Program-made: the position numbers and the translations under genes | The notes under the pieces: model-generated | The model's database searches: none | What the model saw: the letters and a program-made list of their open reading frames with translations, nothing else | What the model was told of the DNA's origin: nothing | IMG/VR virus record: IMGVR_UViG_3300029006_000029 | Strand: one strand, 5' to 3' | Origin: a virus | Taxonomy: Duplodnaviria > Heunggongvirae > Uroviricota > Caudoviricetes | DNA length: 5,219 nucleotides | In this document: in pieces, positions 1 through 5,219 of the stretch | How the letters are laid out: every line of letters begins with the position of its first letter | Position numbering within the stretch: position 1 is the stretch's first letter

Positions 1-178
1 GGTTTTTTTATGCGTAATGCACAGCCACATTCAGATTATGGTGGGGCGTGCAGGGCAGCCGAAAGGCTGGCCGGTTTCGGTAGTCACCGGTATTTCCACC
101 CCTGTACGTCTCACCACCCTTATGGTCGTGGAAAGCCTTGGTGGTGAGTTATTTAAACTGACTATCGAGGCTGCCATC

Positions 179-747: not shown

Positions 748-936
748 ATGGAAACGTTATTACCAAACGTTAATACGTCTGAAGGTTGTTTTGATATTGG
801 TGTTCTGCTCAGTAACCGGGAGTTTACTGAAGATGCCATTAAGATGAGAAAATATGAACCTTATCTTCTCAATGATAATTCCATACTTTCCAGAATTGCC
901 CTTCTTGAACTTGGTATTATCGGAGAACAGCAGTGA
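748..936 (+). CDS. hypothetical small protein (62 aa)
   Basis: ATG at 748 preceded by GAGGA (736-740) at about 7 nt spacing; starts 10 nt after the Rha stop, co-oriented with the operon. Sequence is visibly AT-rich. No family recognised. Confidence 0.45.
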   Translation: METLLPNVNTSEGCFDIGVLLSNREFTEDAIKMRKYEPYLLNDNSILSRIALLELGIIGEQQ

Positions 937-1121
937 CCTCAGCATTTGCACTGGTGATGACCGTTTTTCTTATAACGGGTGAGCCGCAGAATGTGATTAC
1001 CGGAATTTATGACAGTAAGTCATCCTGCATTCAGGTAAGGGACGAACAAAAAATCCCCGGTGAATGCCTCCCGTTAAAAAAAGTATCGCTGTACCTGAAT
1101 AACGAAATACCGGCTGGATAA
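933..1121 (+). CDS. hypothetical small protein with hydrophobic N-terminus (possible signal peptide or membrane anchor), 62 aa
   Basis: GTG start at 933 overlaps the upstream stop (GTGA, 933-936), a classic translational-coupling arrangement; GGAG at 922-925. N-terminus MTSAFALVMTVFLITG is hydrophobic; two Cys in the tail (SSCIQV...PGEC). An alternative start is the in-frame ATG at 957. No family recognised. Confidence 0.4.
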   Translation: MTSAFALVMTVFLITGEPQNVITGIYDSKSSCIQVRDEQKIPGECLPLKKVSLYLNNEIPAG

Positions 1122-1213
1122 CCCACCAGCCATATTAACGCCATACCAACGGATTAAAAATGCCAGCAATGGCAGGGATTCGTACAACCTTAAAATAGTA
1201 ATGAGGTTTATCA

Positions 1214-3757
1214 ATGAGCACTGATAAAGAAACTTTTGCACTATATTGCGAAGCAAAAAATGACAAGGTCAGAAAACGCCTTGGGATTAAAGGTGGTTTT
1301 TACTGGACTACAGCAAAAAAATTATCTGTTGCCATCTCCCGCTGCATTACCGCAATGGATGATAATGATTATGACGAGGACGACTTTAAAAAACCTGTTC
1401 GCGTCCATTTACCCGTTGTGAATGACCTTCCTCCAGAAGGCGTGTTTGATACTGAATTCTGCAACCGTTACGAAAAAGGCGGGGAAGATGGTATCACAAT
1501 GATATTTATAGCTCCTTCCCCTTCAGCTCAGGACAAACCTGCCAGCACTGACAATACCAGCAGCGAAGCTGTTACAGGTGTCAGCCGTGACTGCGATGAA
1601 CAAAGTGACTCTCAGACAGAGAACGCAGATAAAAGCGAATCCCCGGACAGCAACGATGACTGCCCTGAATGTGAAATCCCCGTCTCCACCCTGAGTCTTA
1701 CCCATCGCTTCCTGCACCTCTACTTCTTTGGTCAGGAGTTCGACGAGAAATACAAACATCACGCCACACCAGAACAACGCAAGGACGTGATCCGCATCGA
1801 AATGGATATGGAAGATGGAAACATACAGAGCCTGCTTACTGCAGTACGTTCGCATCCTGAGCTGGATAAGCTGACAAACCATCATCTTGGAAGACTGGCG
1901 CATTCGGTGGAAAAGGCATTCACTCACGCAACAACACGCCGTATCAGCCCGGCAGAATTCGACAAGTTCATTTCCACCTGGATGAAGACTGACTACCTTG
2001 ATCAGGGGCTGTTGACAAAAGAGTGGGCAAAGGGAAATTGCGTATCTGAAATCAATCGCACCCCGTCCGGCGCTAATGCTGGCGGAGGAATTCTTACCGA
2101 TCGCGGTGAAGGTTTTGTCCACGATGATGCGTCAGTGGAACGTGACGTTGCCGCTGGCGTTCTGGCCCGTTCAATGGACATCGATATTTACAATCCACAT
2201 CCGGCACACGCCAAACGCATTGAAGAAATCGTTTCAGAGAATAAGCCGCCCTTTTCTGTTTTTCGTGACAAATTCATCGCCATGCCTGGTCACCTGGATT
2301 ATTCCCGCGCGATAGTAGTTGCGTCCGTGAAAGAAGCACCAATTGGTATCGAGGCTACTCCCCACCGTGTTACCGAATATCTGAACAAAGTACTGACCGA
2401 AACCGATCATGCCAACCCTGATCCGGAAATCGTGGATATTGCCTGCGGTCGCTCCTCTGCCCCTATCCCGCAGCGTGTAACAAAAGAAGGAAAACAGGAT
2501 GATGAAGAAAAACCGCAGCCATCTGGCGCAATGGCAGATGAACAGGCAACGACTGAAGCAGTGGAACCGGATACAACTGAACATAATCAGGACACGCAGT
2601 CGATGGATGCTCAGCCACAGATAAATTCTGTTGATGCGAAATATCAGAAACTGCGTGCAGAACTCTATGAAGCCAGGAAAAACATTCCACCCAAAAATCC
2701 TGTCGATGCAGATAAATTACTGGCTGCTTCTCACGGAGAATTTGTTGAAGGGATTAGCGACCCGAATGATCCAAAATGGGTGAAGGGGATTGAAACCCGC
2801 GATTCGGTGAACCATAACCAGCAAGAAACGGAACAGAAAGGCCATAAAGCGGAACAACACAGTCCAAATGCGCAACAAAACGAGCCAGAAACGAAACAGC
2901 CTGAACCAGTAGCGCAACAGGAACCGGAAAAAGTCTGCACAGCCTGCGGTCAGATCGGCGGCGGCAACTGTCCTGACTGTGGCGCGGTGATGGGCGACGC
3001 AACATACCATGAGACATTCAACGAAGAAAGCCAGGATGAAGCCCGGGAAAAAGATCCGGAGGAAATGGAAAGTGCCGGACTCCCGAACAAGGAGTGCACC
3101 GAAGGCGATCAACATGCCAATGGCAATAATGAAACAGGCGAGACAGCAAATCTCTTAATTAAGGTGAACGGTCATCGTGAAATCACATCCACCAGCAGGT
3201 TGTGGCACCATCTGATGATTGACCTTGAAACAATGGGCAAAAATCCTGACGCACCAATAGCCTCAATAGGCGCTGTATTTTTCGATCCACAAACCGGAGA
3301 TATGGGACCGGAATTTAGTAAGACTATCGATCTGGAAACTGCTGGCGGAGTCATTGATCGGGACACCATTAAATGGTGGCTTAAGCAATCACGCGAAGCG
3401 CAATCTGCCATTATGACCGATGAAATCCCGTTAGATGATGCACTGTTACAATTGCGGGAATTTATCGACGAAAACTCCGGTGAATTTTATGTTCAGGTCT
3501 GGGGAAATGGAGCCAACTTCGACAACACGATTTTGCGCCGTTCATACGAACGGCAGGGGATCCCCTGCCCGTGGCGTTACTACAACGATCGCGATGTACG
3601 CACAATCGTTGAGCTGGGGAAAGCCATAGACTTCGATGCCAGAACGGCTATTCCATTCGAAGGTGAGCGCCATAATGCACTTGATGACGCCCGTTACCAG
3701 GCAAAATACGTTTCAGTTATCTGGCAAAAACTGATCCCGAGTCAGGCTGATTCTTAA
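1214..3757 (+). CDS. large phage exonuclease, RecE-like (exodeoxyribonuclease VIII-like) N-terminal and central region with a C-terminal DEDDh (DnaQ/RNase T-like) 3'-5' exonuclease domain
   Basis: 847-aa ORF; ATG 1214 with GAGG at 1203-1206. Segments such as [21 protein letters not shown]...SGANAGGG...[50 protein letters not shown] and [13 protein letters not shown] match my unverified recollection of the N-terminal region of Rac RecE. The C-terminal ~190 aa carry DEDDh motifs: MIDLETMG (D at 3221-3223, E at 3227-3229), [12 protein letters not shown] (D at 3521-3523), HNALDDARY (H at 3671-3673, D at 3686-3688). Stop TAA 3755-3757. Confidence 0.9.
3182..3754 (+). other. DEDDh-type 3'-5' exonuclease domain (C-terminal domain of the 1214..3757 ORF)
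   Basis: Exo I D-x-E (DLE in LMIDLETMG), Exo II ([13 protein letters not shown]) and Exo III H-x4-D (HNALDD) occur in canonical order and spacing within about 190 residues. Confidence 0.8.
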
Positions 3758-3829: not shown

Positions 3830-4081
3830 ATGAGCGAAGTAATCATGATTGTCTCTCCCGGCAAATGGGTATCCGAAGAGCAGTTAATTGCGCTGAAAGG
3901 AATAAAAAAAGGTACGTTAAAAAAGGCCCGGGAAAAATCGTTTATGGAAGGAAGGGAATATAAGCATGTCGCTCATGACGGTATGCCATGGGATAACAGC
4001 CCATGCTTTTACAACCTGGAAGAAATTGATCGCTGGATTGAGCGCCAGGCATCAGCGAGACCAAGACGTCATCTTACTTGA
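3830..4081 (+). CDS. xis: excisionase-like protein (Xis), 83 aa
   Basis: Small ORF immediately upstream of and co-oriented with the integrase. Product (MSEVIMIVSPGKWVSEEQLIALKGIKKGTLKKAREKSFMEGREYKHVAHDGMPWDNSPCFYNLEEIDRWIERQ...) has the size and basic/aromatic character of phage excisionases. Alternative start ATG at 3845. Stop TGA 4079-4081. Confidence 0.75.
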   Translation: MSEVIMIVSPGKWVSEEQLIALKGIKKGTLKKAREKSFMEGREYKHVAHDGMPWDNSPCFYNLEEIDRWIERQASARPRRHLT

Positions 4082-4115
4082 CTAAAAGCCACACTAACTA
4101 ATGAGAGAAGTTGAA

Positions 4116-5219
4116 ATGAAATATCCGACAGGCGTGGAAAACCATGGAGGGAAATTACGTATCTGGTTTGTTTATAAAGGCGTAAGAGTCAGGGAAAATC
4201 TGGGGGTTCCTGACACAGCAAAAAACAGGCGCGTNNNNNNNNNNCTACGCGCCTCTGTTTGTTACGCAATAAAAACTGGTGTTTTCGACTATGCAAAACA
4301 GTTTCCCTCCTCACGCAATCTGGAAAAATTTGGTGAGGCCCGACAAGATTTAACCATAAAAGAACTGGCTGAAAAATTTCTGGCACTGAAAGAAACTGAA
4401 GTCGCAAAAACATCACTCAACACATACCGTGCCGTCATCAAAAATATCCTGAGCATAATCGGTGAAAAAAATCTTGCCTCATCGATTAATAAAGAAAAAT
4501 TACTGGAGGTTCGTAAAGAGCTACTGACTGGATACCAGATCCCCAAAAGTAACTATATTGTTACACAACCAGGGAGATCGGCTGTAACTGTAAATAATTA
4601 CATGACAAATCTTAACGCCGTGTTCCAGTTTGGTGTTGATAACGGTTACTTGGCAGATAACCCGTTTAAGGGGATCTCGCCATTAAAGGAATCAAGAACC
4701 ATTCCGGATCCTCTTTCGCGGGAGGAATTCATCCGTCTTATCGATGCGTGCAGAAATCAGCAAGCCAAAAATTTATGGTGTGTTTCTGTTTATACTGGCG
4801 TTCGCCCTGGTGAGCTGTGTGCACTTGGATGGGAGGACATAGATCTGAAAAATGGAACAATGATGATCAGGAGAAATTTAGCAAAAGACCGTTTCACGGT
4901 ACCAAAAACACAGGCGGGAACCAATCGGGTCATTCATCTTATTAAGCCAGCAATCGACGCTCTCCGGAGTCAGATGACATTAACGAGACTGAGCAAAGAG
5001 CATATCATTGATGTTCACCTCAGAGAGTATGGCAGAACAGAAAAACAAAAATGCACCTTTGTTTTTCAACCTGAAGTGTCAGCGAGAGTAAAAAATTATG
5101 GTGACCATTTTACCGTTGACTCAATAAGGCAGATGTGGGACGCAGCGATAAAACGTGCCGGACTCCGCCATCGAAAATCATATCAGTCGAGACATACTTA
5201 TGCCTGCTGGTCGCTGACA
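4116..5219 (+). CDS. int: phage integrase, tyrosine recombinase family; 3'-partial (runs off the window end), contains a 10-N run
   Basis: Hand-translated from ATG 4116 (purine-rich GAGAGAAG just upstream; another in-frame ATG at 4101). The frame stays open for 368 codons to 5219, reading through the N-run. N-terminus MKYPTGVENHGGKLRIWFVYKGVRVREN resembles Rac-type IntR as I recall it. Box I motif VYTGVRPGELCAL is present (catalytic Arg codon 4803-4805) and box II begins at SRHTYACWSL at the window edge; the catalytic Tyr lies beyond the window. Absent from the ORF track because there is no in-window stop. Confidence 0.9.
   Translation, partial: MKYPTGVENHGGKLRIWFVYKGVRVRENLGVPDTAKNRRXXXXLRASVCYAIKTGVFDYAKQFPSSRNLEKFGEARQDLTIKELAEKFLALKETEVAKTSLNTYRAVIKNILSIIGEKNLASSINKEKLLEVRKELLTGYQIPKSNYIVTQPGRSAVTVNNYMTNLNAVFQFGVDNGYLADNPFKGISPLKESRTIPDPLSREEFIRLIDACRNQQAKNLWCVSVYTGVRPGELCALGWEDIDLKNGTMMIRRNLAKDRFTVPKTQAGTNRVIHLIKPAIDALRSQMTLTRLSKEHIIDVHLREYGRTEKQKCTFVFQPEVSARVKNYGDHFTVDSIRQMWDAAIKRAGLRHRKSYQSRHTYACWSLT
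4235..4244. other. run of 10 ambiguous bases (N) - assembly gap or masked bases inside the integrase gene
   Basis: Literal nnnnnnnnnn in the sequence. The integrase frame is maintained across it (GTN codon plus three NNN codons), so the run's length is compatible with the true sequence. Confidence 0.95.

What the first reader, a model, noticed from the sequence alone, without database searches (positions are those of the whole stretch)
1214..3757. RecE-like scaffold fused to a DEDDh 3'-5' exonuclease instead of the canonical RecE nuclease
The last ~190 residues carry the three DEDDh motifs in order (DLE in MIDLETMG; FD in [12 protein letters not shown]; H-x4-D in HNALDD), which define the DnaQ/RNase T/oligoribonuclease superfamily of 3'-5' exonucleases. 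The first ~420 residues resemble, from my unverified memory, the N-terminal region of Rac RecE. Canonical RecE has a lambda-exonuclease-like PD-(D/E)XK 5'-3' nuclease domain, so this ORF looks like a domain swap that inverts the expected polarity. A 3'-5' enzyme would not produce the 3' overhangs used by RecT-type annealing, so its role may differ, for example end processing or, speculatively, RNA or signalling-nucleotide degradation or anti-defence.
Basis: partly seen in the sequence, partly recalled or inferred. Interest (0 to 1): 0.7.

Follow-up and report, generated by a model that had tools for sequence, protein, structure and literature searches.

The report
Prophage RecE-scaffold 3'-5' exonuclease fusion
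This is a real but very common E. coli prophage gene in which the N-terminal two-thirds of the RecE recombination nuclease is joined to a DexA/DnaQ-type 3'-5' exonuclease instead of RecE's own 5'-3' nuclease; databases already list it, but nobody has tested what the full-length protein does.

Summary
ORF 1214-3757 (847 aa) has a full-length PF16473 (Rv2179c/DexA-like) DEDDh domain at residues 665-837, with catalytic D670, E672, D770, H820 and D825. Residues 58-649 are 56% identical to K-12 RecE residues 50-591. Similarity stops about 15 residues before RecE's PD-(D/E)XK domain.

The novelty claim largely fails. The DEDDh domain DNA is in 4043 of 5426 complete E. coli genomes, against 1730 for the canonical RecE nuclease domain. 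RefSeq names the gene "exonuclease" or "3'-5' exonuclease". A 2025 paper already notes DnaQ-type nucleases next to int in lambdoid phages.

The gene is the last early-left gene (dicB, ydfD, exo, xis, int) of a lambdoid prophage with no RecT, annealase or Gam. The closest solved structure is phage T4 DexA, a 3'-5' DNA exonuclease. The only characterised E. coli relative, EcD (the "HREX" anti-T4 nuclease), is a standalone P2-like-prophage protein. It is 38% identical, and its reported 5hmC-recognition residues are not conserved here.

Most likely this is a Mg-dependent 3'-5' DNA-end exonuclease tethered to a RecE-type scaffold of unknown function. It is not a RecET-type recombinase. Its biological role is untested.

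The parts
1214..3757 (+). Whole ORF, 847 aa: RecE-type scaffold fused to a DEDDh exonuclease
   Evidence: ORF list; Pfam, NCBIfam and PHROG scans
1214..2695 (+). Module A (residues 1-494): RecE-type N-terminal region. It includes the PF06630 match (residues 57-196), a confidently modelled helical domain (residues ~151-281) and the conserved scaffold core (residues ~260-420, nt 1991-2473).
   Evidence: PF06630 47 bits against a cutoff of 25; 50% amino-acid identity to K-12 RecE, dN/dS 0.45; pLDDT 74-89 only for residues 151-281; core conserved in 66 representatives with no PDB homologue. The Qin-type genes have a different, distantly related YdfE-type module here.
2696..3160 (+). Module B (residues 495-649): middle region shared by Rac RecE, this protein and the Qin-type 823-aa exonucleases. 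It is acidic and low-complexity, with a CxxC-x7-CxxC knuckle at residues 575-589 (nt 2936-2980).
   Evidence: Alignments; C575, C578, C586 and C589 invariant in 18 homologues; dN/dS 0.22-0.25
3161..3205 (+). Swap junction and linker (residues 650-664). Similarity to recE ends at ~3159. A Chi site lies on the opposite strand at 3189-3196.
   Evidence: blastn boundaries; Chi search; the same Chi is conserved in phage HannyBb
3206..3757 (+). Module C (residues 665-847): DEDDh 3'-5' exonuclease domain of the DexA/Rv2179c family. Catalytic codons: D670 (3221-3223), E672 (3227-3229), D770 (3521-3523), H820 (3671-3673), D825 (3686-3688).
   Evidence: PF16473 E=1.4e-67; invariant residues; model and fold search; dN/dS 0.10-0.14
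748..1121 (+). Upstream operon partners: dicB (748-936) and the ydfD-like DUF1482 gene (933-1121)
   Evidence: Pfam PF05358 and PF07358; same order
3830..4081 (+). Excisionase (DUF1233) directly downstream. There is no recT between the exonuclease and xis.
   Evidence: Pfam PF06806; no + strand terminator-like site between the exonuclease and xis
4113..5219 (+). Integrase gene. It runs off the window end and contains a 10-base N-run at 4235-4244.
   Evidence: Translation; annotations of matching phages

Best explanation
The ORF encodes a modular 'beads-on-a-string' protein made by the early-left (pL-type) operon of a lambdoid prophage that has no recombination module of its own. Residues 1-649 are the RecE-family scaffold, whose function is unknown even in RecE. 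It comprises a PF06630 region, a helical domain, a conserved core, a zinc-knuckle-like CxxC pair and acidic linkers. Residues 665-847 are an intact DEDDh exonuclease of the DexA/Rv2179c family, which uses two-metal catalysis and 3'-to-5' polarity. I infer that the protein removes nucleotides from 3' ends, most probably of DNA, during phage lytic development after induction, when it is co-transcribed with dicB, ydfD, xis and int. It does not act as a RecE/RecT-type 5'-3' resection-and-annealing machine. The scaffold is a nuclease-independent module that evolution has joined to either a 5'-3' PD-(D/E)XK nuclease or a 3'-5' DEDDh nuclease. Shown: the domain identities, the catalytic residues, the fold, the swap junction, purifying selection, the operon context, the absence of an annealase and the prevalence. 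Inferred: polarity and metal dependence (from family membership), DNA rather than RNA as the substrate, and the timing and role in the phage life cycle. My confidence is about 0.9 for the enzyme class, about 0.6 for DNA as the substrate and about 0.3 for any specific biological role. The overall figure given is for the statement as a whole.
For: Domain identity. Catalytic residues and fold. T4 DexA, a 3'-5' DNA exonuclease, is both the only sequence-detectable PDB relative and the best fold match, and it is itself a PF16473 member. The characterised E. coli homologue EcD digests DNA. All modules are under purifying selection, the nuclease domain most strongly (dN/dS 0.10-0.14), and the gene is intact in functional phages such as HannyBb, Tritos and mEp460. 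Context is constant (dicB, ydfD, exo, xis, int) with no recT, annealase or Gam. A standalone Salmonella version sits in the same slot before xis and int. Among 50%-identity representatives the scaffold is paired with DEDDh (14), with PD-(D/E)XK (at least 19) or with no recognisable nuclease. The last group matches the 'RecE-2' proteins and the DnaQ-type nucleases near int noted by Zheng et al. 2025.
Against: No activity has been measured for this protein or any full-length fusion. The Pfam family is named after an exoribonuclease (Rv2179c), and DEDDh enzymes often accept both RNA and DNA, so DNA as the substrate is only an inference. The scaffold model is poor (mean pLDDT 40.6) and has no structural homologue, so nothing shows that it binds DNA ends. 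Expression timing is inferred from operon position alone. 3'-5' exonucleases generally inhibit rather than promote homologous recombination (Zheng et al. quoting Lovett 2011), so the benefit to the phage is unclear.
Confidence: 0.55

Rival explanations
1. HREX-type defence: like E. coli EcD, the nuclease domain selectively digests 5hmC-modified DNA of incoming T-even phages, so the prophage protects its host.
For: EcD is a homologue that starts at the position equivalent to M668. On a plasmid it digested T4 DNA and protected E. coli. The gene is prophage-borne and present in about 75% of E. coli genomes.
Against: EcD is only 38% identical and is a standalone gene of a P2-like prophage found in 26 of 5426 genomes. 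The two residues the paper found necessary for 5hmC-DNA cleavage (DexA W152 and D169; W and E in EcD) are Y789 and K803/A804 here. The gene lies at the distal end of the repressor-controlled early-left operon with no convincing promoter of its own (one weak site against 5.1 expected by chance). There are no PADLOC hits.
Confidence: 0.15
2. RNA or oligonucleotide exonuclease: as the Pfam and NCBI names suggest (3'-5' exoribonuclease, Rv2179c-like), it trims RNA 3' ends or degrades short linear oligonucleotides, for RNA turnover or to interfere with host nucleotide signalling.
For: PF16473 is named for the M. tuberculosis exoribonuclease Rv2179c. Fold neighbours after DexA are RNase T, oligoribonuclease and REXO2. 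PGAP names many copies '3'-5' exoribonuclease'.
Against: The nearest relatives with measured activity, DexA and EcD, are DNases. The domain replaces a DNA exonuclease on a scaffold otherwise known only from a DNA recombination enzyme. RNase T itself also cuts DNA, as the many RNase T-DNA co-crystal structures show. Cyclic signalling nucleotides have no free 3' end for a DEDDh exonuclease to attack (general knowledge).
Confidence: 0.15
3. It is a genuine RecE (exodeoxyribonuclease VIII), as some records annotate it: a 5'-3' dsDNA exonuclease working with an annealase.
For: Several phage and GenBank records call it exodeoxyribonuclease VIII. Residues 1-649 match the RecE equivalog model.
Against: The score of 859 is below the equivalog cutoff of 1269, because model positions 603-877, the nuclease domain, are unmatched. 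There is no PF12684/PD-(D/E)XK domain and no recT neighbour. The part of RecE that suffices for recombination, residues 564-866, is mostly the part that is missing.
Confidence: 0.02
4. It is a decaying mosaic relic with no current function.
For: Disrupted copies exist: the K-12 ydfE pseudogene cut by IS2E, a frameshifted copy in L011 and IS3-interrupted copies.
Against: dN/dS is 0.10-0.25 across modules. The catalytic residues are invariant. The 814-847 aa ORFs are intact in thousands of genomes and in plaque-forming phages.
Confidence: 0.03

Closest known systems
Rac prophage RecE (exonuclease VIII), E. coli K-12 b1350
   Same: Residues 58-649 are 56% identical to RecE 50-591. The PF06630 region, the conserved core and the CxxC...CxxC knuckle are shared. 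Both are late genes of a lambdoid early-left operon.
   Different: The C-terminal PD-(D/E)XK 5'-3' nuclease (PF12684, RecE 615-850) is replaced by a DEDDh domain. There is no recT, ralR or rcbA downstream. The protein scores below the RecE equivalog cutoff.
Phage T4 DexA (exonuclease A; PDB 8KEL/8KEN)
   Same: Same Pfam family (PF16473), same DEDDh catalytic residues, best fold match (TM 0.74) and the only PDB hit by sequence.
   Different: About 26% identity. DexA is a 227-aa standalone protein with extra loops. DexA residues W152, D169 and S87 correspond to Y789, A804/K803 and P739 here.
E. coli EcD, the 'HREX' nuclease (GenBank HAK9828821.1; RefSeq WP_016236094.1 type)
   Same: A DEDDh domain of the same family, prophage-encoded in E. 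coli, starting at the position equivalent to M668.
   Different: 38% identity. It is a standalone ~190-aa gene in the early operon of a P2-like prophage. It keeps W and E at the reported 5hmC-recognition positions, and this protein does not. It is rare, with the forward primer site in 26 of 5426 genomes.
Qin-type 823-aa 'exonuclease' (e.g. WP_000048342.1; the K-12 ydfE pseudogene is its truncated N-terminus)
   Same: Same operon slot (dicB, ydfD, exo, xis, int). Modules B and C are 76-98% identical.
   Different: Its N-terminal ~470 residues are the YdfE-type variant, only distantly related through the ~150-residue core.
DnaQ-type nucleases and 'RecE-2' proteins of lambdoid early-left operons (Zheng, Casjens, Davidson, Amundsen and Smith, Genome Res 2025, PMC12315714)
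   Same: [quoted passage not shown] This matches the position and the family found here.
   Different: In the text I could read, the paper does not describe the fusion of the two or analyse it further. Its supplementary tables were not available.
M. tuberculosis Rv2179c (namesake of PF16473)
   Same: Same Pfam family and DEDDh chemistry.
   Different: It is a standalone bacterial exoribonuclease. It was not among the top 50 fold matches. No direct comparison was made here.

Membership tests
RecE / exodeoxyribonuclease VIII (NCBIfam NF007259 equivalog) | Whole-protein score at or above the curated cutoff (1269 bits) | tested here: not met
   859 bits; only model positions 1-602 of 877 are matched
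RecE / exodeoxyribonuclease VIII (NCBIfam NF007259 equivalog) | C-terminal PD-(D/E)XK nuclease domain (PF12684; RecE 606-866) | tested here: not met
   No PF12684 hit here, whereas K-12 RecE has it at 615-850. BLASTP similarity ends at RecE residue 591.
RecE / exodeoxyribonuclease VIII (NCBIfam NF007259 equivalog) | N-terminal Exonuc_VIII region (PF06630) | tested here: met
   47 bits against a cutoff of 25, residues 57-196
RecE / exodeoxyribonuclease VIII (NCBIfam NF007259 equivalog) | Adjacent recT annealase partner | tested here: not met
   xis follows directly. There is no recT in related loci or in phage HannyBb, whereas recT accompanies canonical recE.
RecE / exodeoxyribonuclease VIII (NCBIfam NF007259 equivalog) | 5'-3' dsDNA exonuclease activity | not testable with these tools
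   Needs biochemistry
PF16473 Rv2179c-like / DexA DEDDh 3'-5' exonucleases | Pfam gathering score reached, with full-length domain coverage | tested here: met
   227 bits against 27; profile positions 1-177 of 177
PF16473 Rv2179c-like / DexA DEDDh 3'-5' exonucleases | The five DEDDh catalytic residues in order | tested here: met
   D670, E672, D770, H820 and D825; conserved in 27 homologues and aligned to DexA D7, E9, D119, H186 and D191
PF16473 Rv2179c-like / DexA DEDDh 3'-5' exonucleases | RNase H-like DnaQ fold | tested here: met
   Model pLDDT 87. Best PDB matches are DexA, RNase T, DnaQ and Orn.
PF16473 Rv2179c-like / DexA DEDDh 3'-5' exonucleases | Mg-dependent 3'-5' exonuclease activity, and the substrate (DNA or RNA) | not testable with these tools
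   Needs biochemistry
HREX / EcD-type 5hmC-DNA-specific defence exonuclease (Kang et al. 2025) | Trp equivalent to DexA W152 (required for 5hmC-DNA cleavage) | tested here: not met
   Y789 here, W in EcD and DexA
HREX / EcD-type 5hmC-DNA-specific defence exonuclease (Kang et al. 2025) | Acidic residue equivalent to DexA D169 | tested here: inconclusive
   K803 in the pairwise alignment with EcD and A804 by MAFFT with DexA. This is a loop region, and D806 and D808 lie nearby.
HREX / EcD-type 5hmC-DNA-specific defence exonuclease (Kang et al. 2025) | Loss of the tetramer contact (DexA D90 replaced, A78 in EcD) | tested here: inconclusive
   D742 aligns with D90 and A743 is adjacent. S87 corresponds to P739.
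HREX / EcD-type 5hmC-DNA-specific defence exonuclease (Kang et al. 2025) | Protection against T4 and selective digestion of 5hmC DNA | not testable with these tools
   Needs phage assays and biochemistry
'No Rec module, high Chi' lambdoid phages (Zheng et al. 2025) | No annealase, SSB, Exo/RecE or anti-RecBCD gene in the early-left operon | tested here: met
   Window, L003, L004 and the complete phage HannyBb: only genes of unknown function, dicB, ydfD and this exonuclease. The window itself does not reach the repressor gene.
'No Rec module, high Chi' lambdoid phages (Zheng et al. 2025) | Abundant Chi in the active orientation (typically 8 or more) | tested here: inconclusive
   HannyBb has 5 top-strand and 2 bottom-strand Chi against 1.65 +/- 1.28 expected. 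The window has 2 against 0.17. This is an enrichment but is below the paper's typical count.

The most novel reading that the evidence does not exclude
The RecE-family scaffold is a nuclease-agnostic module that targets DNA ends. In lambdoid phages that lack their own recombination module and rely on host RecBCD plus Chi, it carries a 3'-5' exonuclease whose job is to trim 3'-tailed phage DNA ends to the blunt form that RecBCD can load on. That would make it a phage-encoded accessory of the host RecBCD/Chi pathway rather than a replacement for it. If so, the long-unexplained RecE N-terminal region would have a definable function shared by both nuclease types.
Probability: 0.1. Interest if true: 0.65.

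Novelty: already known. Interest (0 to 1): 0.33.

Why it matters
As a discovery it matters little. The gene is catalogued in thousands of genomes and is correctly labelled a 3'-5' exonuclease by RefSeq, although some phage records still mislabel it exodeoxyribonuclease VIII.

Three points are still useful. First, in E. coli the RecE-like scaffold is joined to a 3'-5' DEDDh nuclease more often than to RecE's own nuclease, and then never with RecT. Annotations of 'RecE/ExoVIII' should therefore not be read as evidence of a RecET recombination system. Second, the same scaffold is joined to nucleases of opposite polarity, or to none. [quoted passage not shown] Third, the published HREX/EcD anti-T4 claim should not be extended to this much commoner prophage protein without testing, because the reported specificity residues differ.

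Tried and rejected
(1) I guessed that K-12 YdfE was the N-terminus of this protein. BLASTP shows no similarity. YdfE is the N-terminus of the Qin-type variant, which shares only modules B and C with this protein.

(2) I took the ~180-aa E. coli proteins (e.g. P0074) for standalone genes. At least P0074 is a piece of a frameshifted fusion gene, and many others are fragments cut at contig ends. True standalone forms do exist in Salmonella (P0112) and in P2-like prophages (EcD).

(3) The structure prediction of the scaffold (residues 1-660) was poor: mean pLDDT 40.6 from a shallow alignment. It was not used for a fold search.

(4) A profile of the conserved scaffold core searched against PDB sequences gave only chance-level hits, best E = 0.18.

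(5) PADLOC defence models gave no hits.

(6) To recover EcD I tried a gapped primer pattern on genome contigs. Two attempts had syntax errors and the third found nothing. The 20-mer alone gave one chance hit in an Acetatifactor MAG. BLAST of the concatenated primers against E. coli genomes succeeded.

(7) Literature searches with 'RecE' as a word start were swamped by 'recent' and 'receptor'. Searches for 'PF16473' and 'ydfE' gave nothing functional. One search was rejected for syntax.

(8) The supplementary tables of Zheng et al. 2025, which might list this gene type by phage, were not available.

(9) The promoter scan gave one weak site just upstream of the gene (1169-1196), fewer than expected by chance, so I make no claim of an independent promoter.
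Full report

Yes. The ORF listing gives one ORF at 1214..3757 on the + strand, 847 aa. Pfam places a complete PF16473 domain ('3'-5' exoribonuclease Rv2179c-like') at residues 665-837, covering profile positions 1-177 of 177, with E=1.4e-67 and 227 bits against a gathering score of 27. The generic RNase_T model PF00929 hits only weakly.

In an alignment of 27 homologues at 58-88% identity, the catalytic Asp, Glu, His and Asp are invariant and D770 is nearly so. An AlphaFold2 model of residues 650-847 is confident (pLDDT 87.2, pTM 0.84). Its best matches among solved structures are phage T4 DexA (8KEL, E=1e-11, TM 0.74), then RNase T, DnaQ domains, oligoribonuclease and REXO2. Among predicted viral structures it matches many phage 'exonuclease/DexA/3'-5' exoribonuclease' proteins.

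**2. Is the N-terminus RecE-like?**

BLASTP against K-12 RecE (fetched) gives 56% identity over residues 58-649, matching RecE 50-591, and no similarity after that. The NCBIfam RecE equivalog aligns residues 1-649 to model positions 1-602 of 877. The score of 859 bits is below the 1269 cutoff because the nuclease part of the model is unmatched. K-12 RecE has PF06630 plus PF12684 (PDDEXK-like, 615-850), while this protein has PF06630 plus PF16473.

At the DNA level, similarity to recE stops at window ~3159 (codon 649). That is 15 codons before the DEDDh domain here, and 15 residues before the crystallised RecE nuclease domain begins. [quoted passage not shown] The protein is therefore a domain swap located in the linker.

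**3. Anatomy: a three-module mosaic**

The 823-aa 'exonuclease' at the Qin prophage site and in O157:H7 shares residues ~495-847 with the window protein (76-98% identity) but has a different N-terminus. The K-12 pseudogene ydfE, cut by IS2E, is the start of that variant. My initial guess that YdfE matched this protein's N-terminus was wrong.

The modules are:
- **Module A** (residues 1-494): either RecE-type or YdfE-type. The two are distantly related through a ~150-residue core.
- **Module B** (residues 495-649): shared with RecE. It is acidic and low-complexity, with an invariant CxxC-x7-CxxC motif.
- **Module C**: either PD-(D/E)XK or DEDDh.

A search of 1.84 billion representatives with residues 1-650 found only 220 relatives, so the scaffold family is narrow. 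Among the long representatives, 14 carry the DEDDh domain, at least 19 carry a PD-(D/E)XK domain, and others carry no recognisable nuclease. All modules are under purifying selection: dN/dS is 0.10-0.14 for C, 0.22-0.25 for B and 0.17-0.45 for A.

The scaffold could not be modelled well (mean pLDDT 40.6; only residues ~151-281 are confident, as a helical domain). A profile of its conserved core has no homologue among PDB sequences.

**4. Context**

The window is the left end of a lambdoid early-left operon. It contains a C4 antisense RNA and remnants of a Rha-type antirepressor, then dicB (748-936), a ydfD-like gene (933-1121), the exonuclease, an excisionase (3830-4081) and an integrase that runs off the end. 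The same order is found in E. coli chromosomes and in plaque-forming phages such as HannyBb, Tritos and mEp460.

None of these loci has recT, another annealase or a Gam-type RecBCD inhibitor. By contrast, Rac has recE-recT-ralR-rcbA-xisR-intR, and every canonical recE hit had recT beside it. No terminator-like site separates the exonuclease from xis on the + strand, and there is no convincing promoter of its own. A true standalone 189-aa version in Salmonella sits in the same slot, just before xis and int.

**5. How common and how well known is it?**

The DEDDh-domain DNA (window 3206-3757) is found at 80% coverage or more in 4043 of 5426 complete E. coli genomes, mostly at 95-99% identity and with up to 7 copies per genome. 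The canonical RecE nuclease-domain DNA is found in 1730. All 120 best database clusters for the full-length protein have the architecture PF06630+PF16473, with lengths of 814-852 aa. Single sequences are seen on up to 989 contigs, named 'exonuclease', '3'-5' exoribonuclease' or, less accurately, 'exodeoxyribonuclease VIII'. PHROGs 607, 2082 and 20376 cover it.

Zheng et al. (Genome Res 2025) report DnaQ-like 3'-5' nucleases in lambdoid phages. [quoted passage not shown] They leave the roles of both open. I found no paper that describes the fusion itself or tests the full-length protein.

**6. Nearest functional data**

T4 DexA is a 3'-5' DNA exonuclease and is itself a PF16473 member. Kang et al. 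(NAR 2025, PMC12153337) showed that an E. coli homologue, EcD, digests 5hmC DNA and, when carried on a plasmid, protects against T4. They named this 'HREX'.

I recovered the EcD gene from the published primers. It is a standalone gene in the early operon of a P2-like prophage, and the forward primer site occurs in 26 of 5426 genomes. Its product has the A78 quoted in the paper and is only 38% identical to the domain here.

The two residues shown to be needed for cleavage of 5hmC DNA are DexA W152 and D169, which are W and E in EcD. Here they correspond to Y789 and K803/A804. The HREX specificity therefore cannot be transferred to this protein.

**7. Most likely mechanism**

Family membership, intact catalytic residues and strong purifying selection make a two-metal 3'-5' exonuclease near certain. 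DNA is the more likely substrate for two reasons: the nearest characterised relatives are DNases, and the domain replaces a DNA exonuclease on a scaffold known only from a DNA-end enzyme. This remains an inference.

Operon position suggests the gene is expressed after induction along with xis and int. Because there is no annealase and the polarity is the opposite of RecE's, it is not a RecET-like single-strand-annealing system. The phages that carry it fit the 'no Rec module' class, which is thought to rely on host RecBCD and Chi. HannyBb has 7 Chi sites against 1.65 expected, and the window has 2 against 0.17.

One speculative role is blunting 3'-tailed ends so that RecBCD can load. I put this at about 10%.

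**8. Verdict**

The novelty claim is largely refuted, because this is the commoner, already catalogued form. Some interest remains. The full-length protein is uncharacterised, 'RecE/ExoVIII' labels on it are misleading, and the pairing of one scaffold with two nucleases of opposite polarity gives a way to study the unknown RecE N-terminal region.

Noticed in passing
window 34-121 (+), with ORFs 17-478 and 489-737: A C4 antisense RNA (Rfam RF01695, 79 bits against a gathering score of 45) lies at the 5' end. ORF 17-478 reads straight across it, so its Pfam 'Ash' hit at residues 5-64 is probably translation of the RNA gene. The ORF then carries only the N-terminal Rha domain. The next ORF (489-737, in a different frame) matches only the C-terminal ends of antirepressor PHROGs. 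Together they look like a degraded antirepressor of a P1 immI-like module. Similarity to the related phages starts only at window 723.
   Followed up: partly
window 4235-4244: A run of 10 N inside the integrase gene. The gene starts at about 4113 and runs off the window end.
   Followed up: no
window 1123-1130 (-) and 3189-3196 (-): Two Chi sites (GCTGGTGG), against 0.17 expected; 2 of 200 shuffles reach this count. The second lies in the 45-nt linker between the end of recE homology (~3159) and the start of the DEDDh domain (3206), which is at the swap junction. It is conserved in phage HannyBb (L016 position 26330, top strand).
   Followed up: partly
L015:5989-6570 (NZ_CP075852.1): The published 'bacterial' defence nuclease EcD (HREX) is encoded in the early operon of a P2-like prophage, between small genes of unknown function and a ParE-like toxin, Dam methylase and replication endonuclease. 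The paper does not mention a prophage. RefSeq starts the protein 4 codons upstream (MNHL...). The published reverse primer differs from this genome by a 1-base indel.
   Followed up: yes
L005:4079-4999 (K-12 ydfE, b1577): The K-12 pseudogene ydfE is the N-terminal part of the Qin-type 823-aa DEDDh exonuclease, truncated by IS2E. Intact copies sit at the same chromosomal site (next to rspB) in other strains, for example L002:5080-7551.
   Followed up: yes
L011:737-3127, and many 'partial' hits: Many database entries that look like short standalone '3'-5' exoribonuclease' proteins of E. coli are fragments of the fusion gene. They were cut at contig ends (the gene is multi-copy) or by frameshifts. 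P0074 is the last piece of a gene split over frames 2, 1 and 2.
   Followed up: yes
window 1991-2473 (residues 260-420): The scaffold core is the best-conserved part shared by the RecE-type and YdfE-type N-termini. Its motifs are RTxSGxxAGGGxxTDR, FDIY, PGxLDYSRA and LTETDHxxP, found in 66 representatives at 31-92% identity. It has no Pfam family of its own, no PDB homologue by profile search and a low-confidence AlphaFold model. It is an uncharacterised domain.
   Followed up: partly
L007:4743-6570: In Salmonella prophages the standalone DEDDh exonuclease is preceded by a 369-aa DndB-like (PF14072) gene in place of the RecE scaffold.
   Followed up: no
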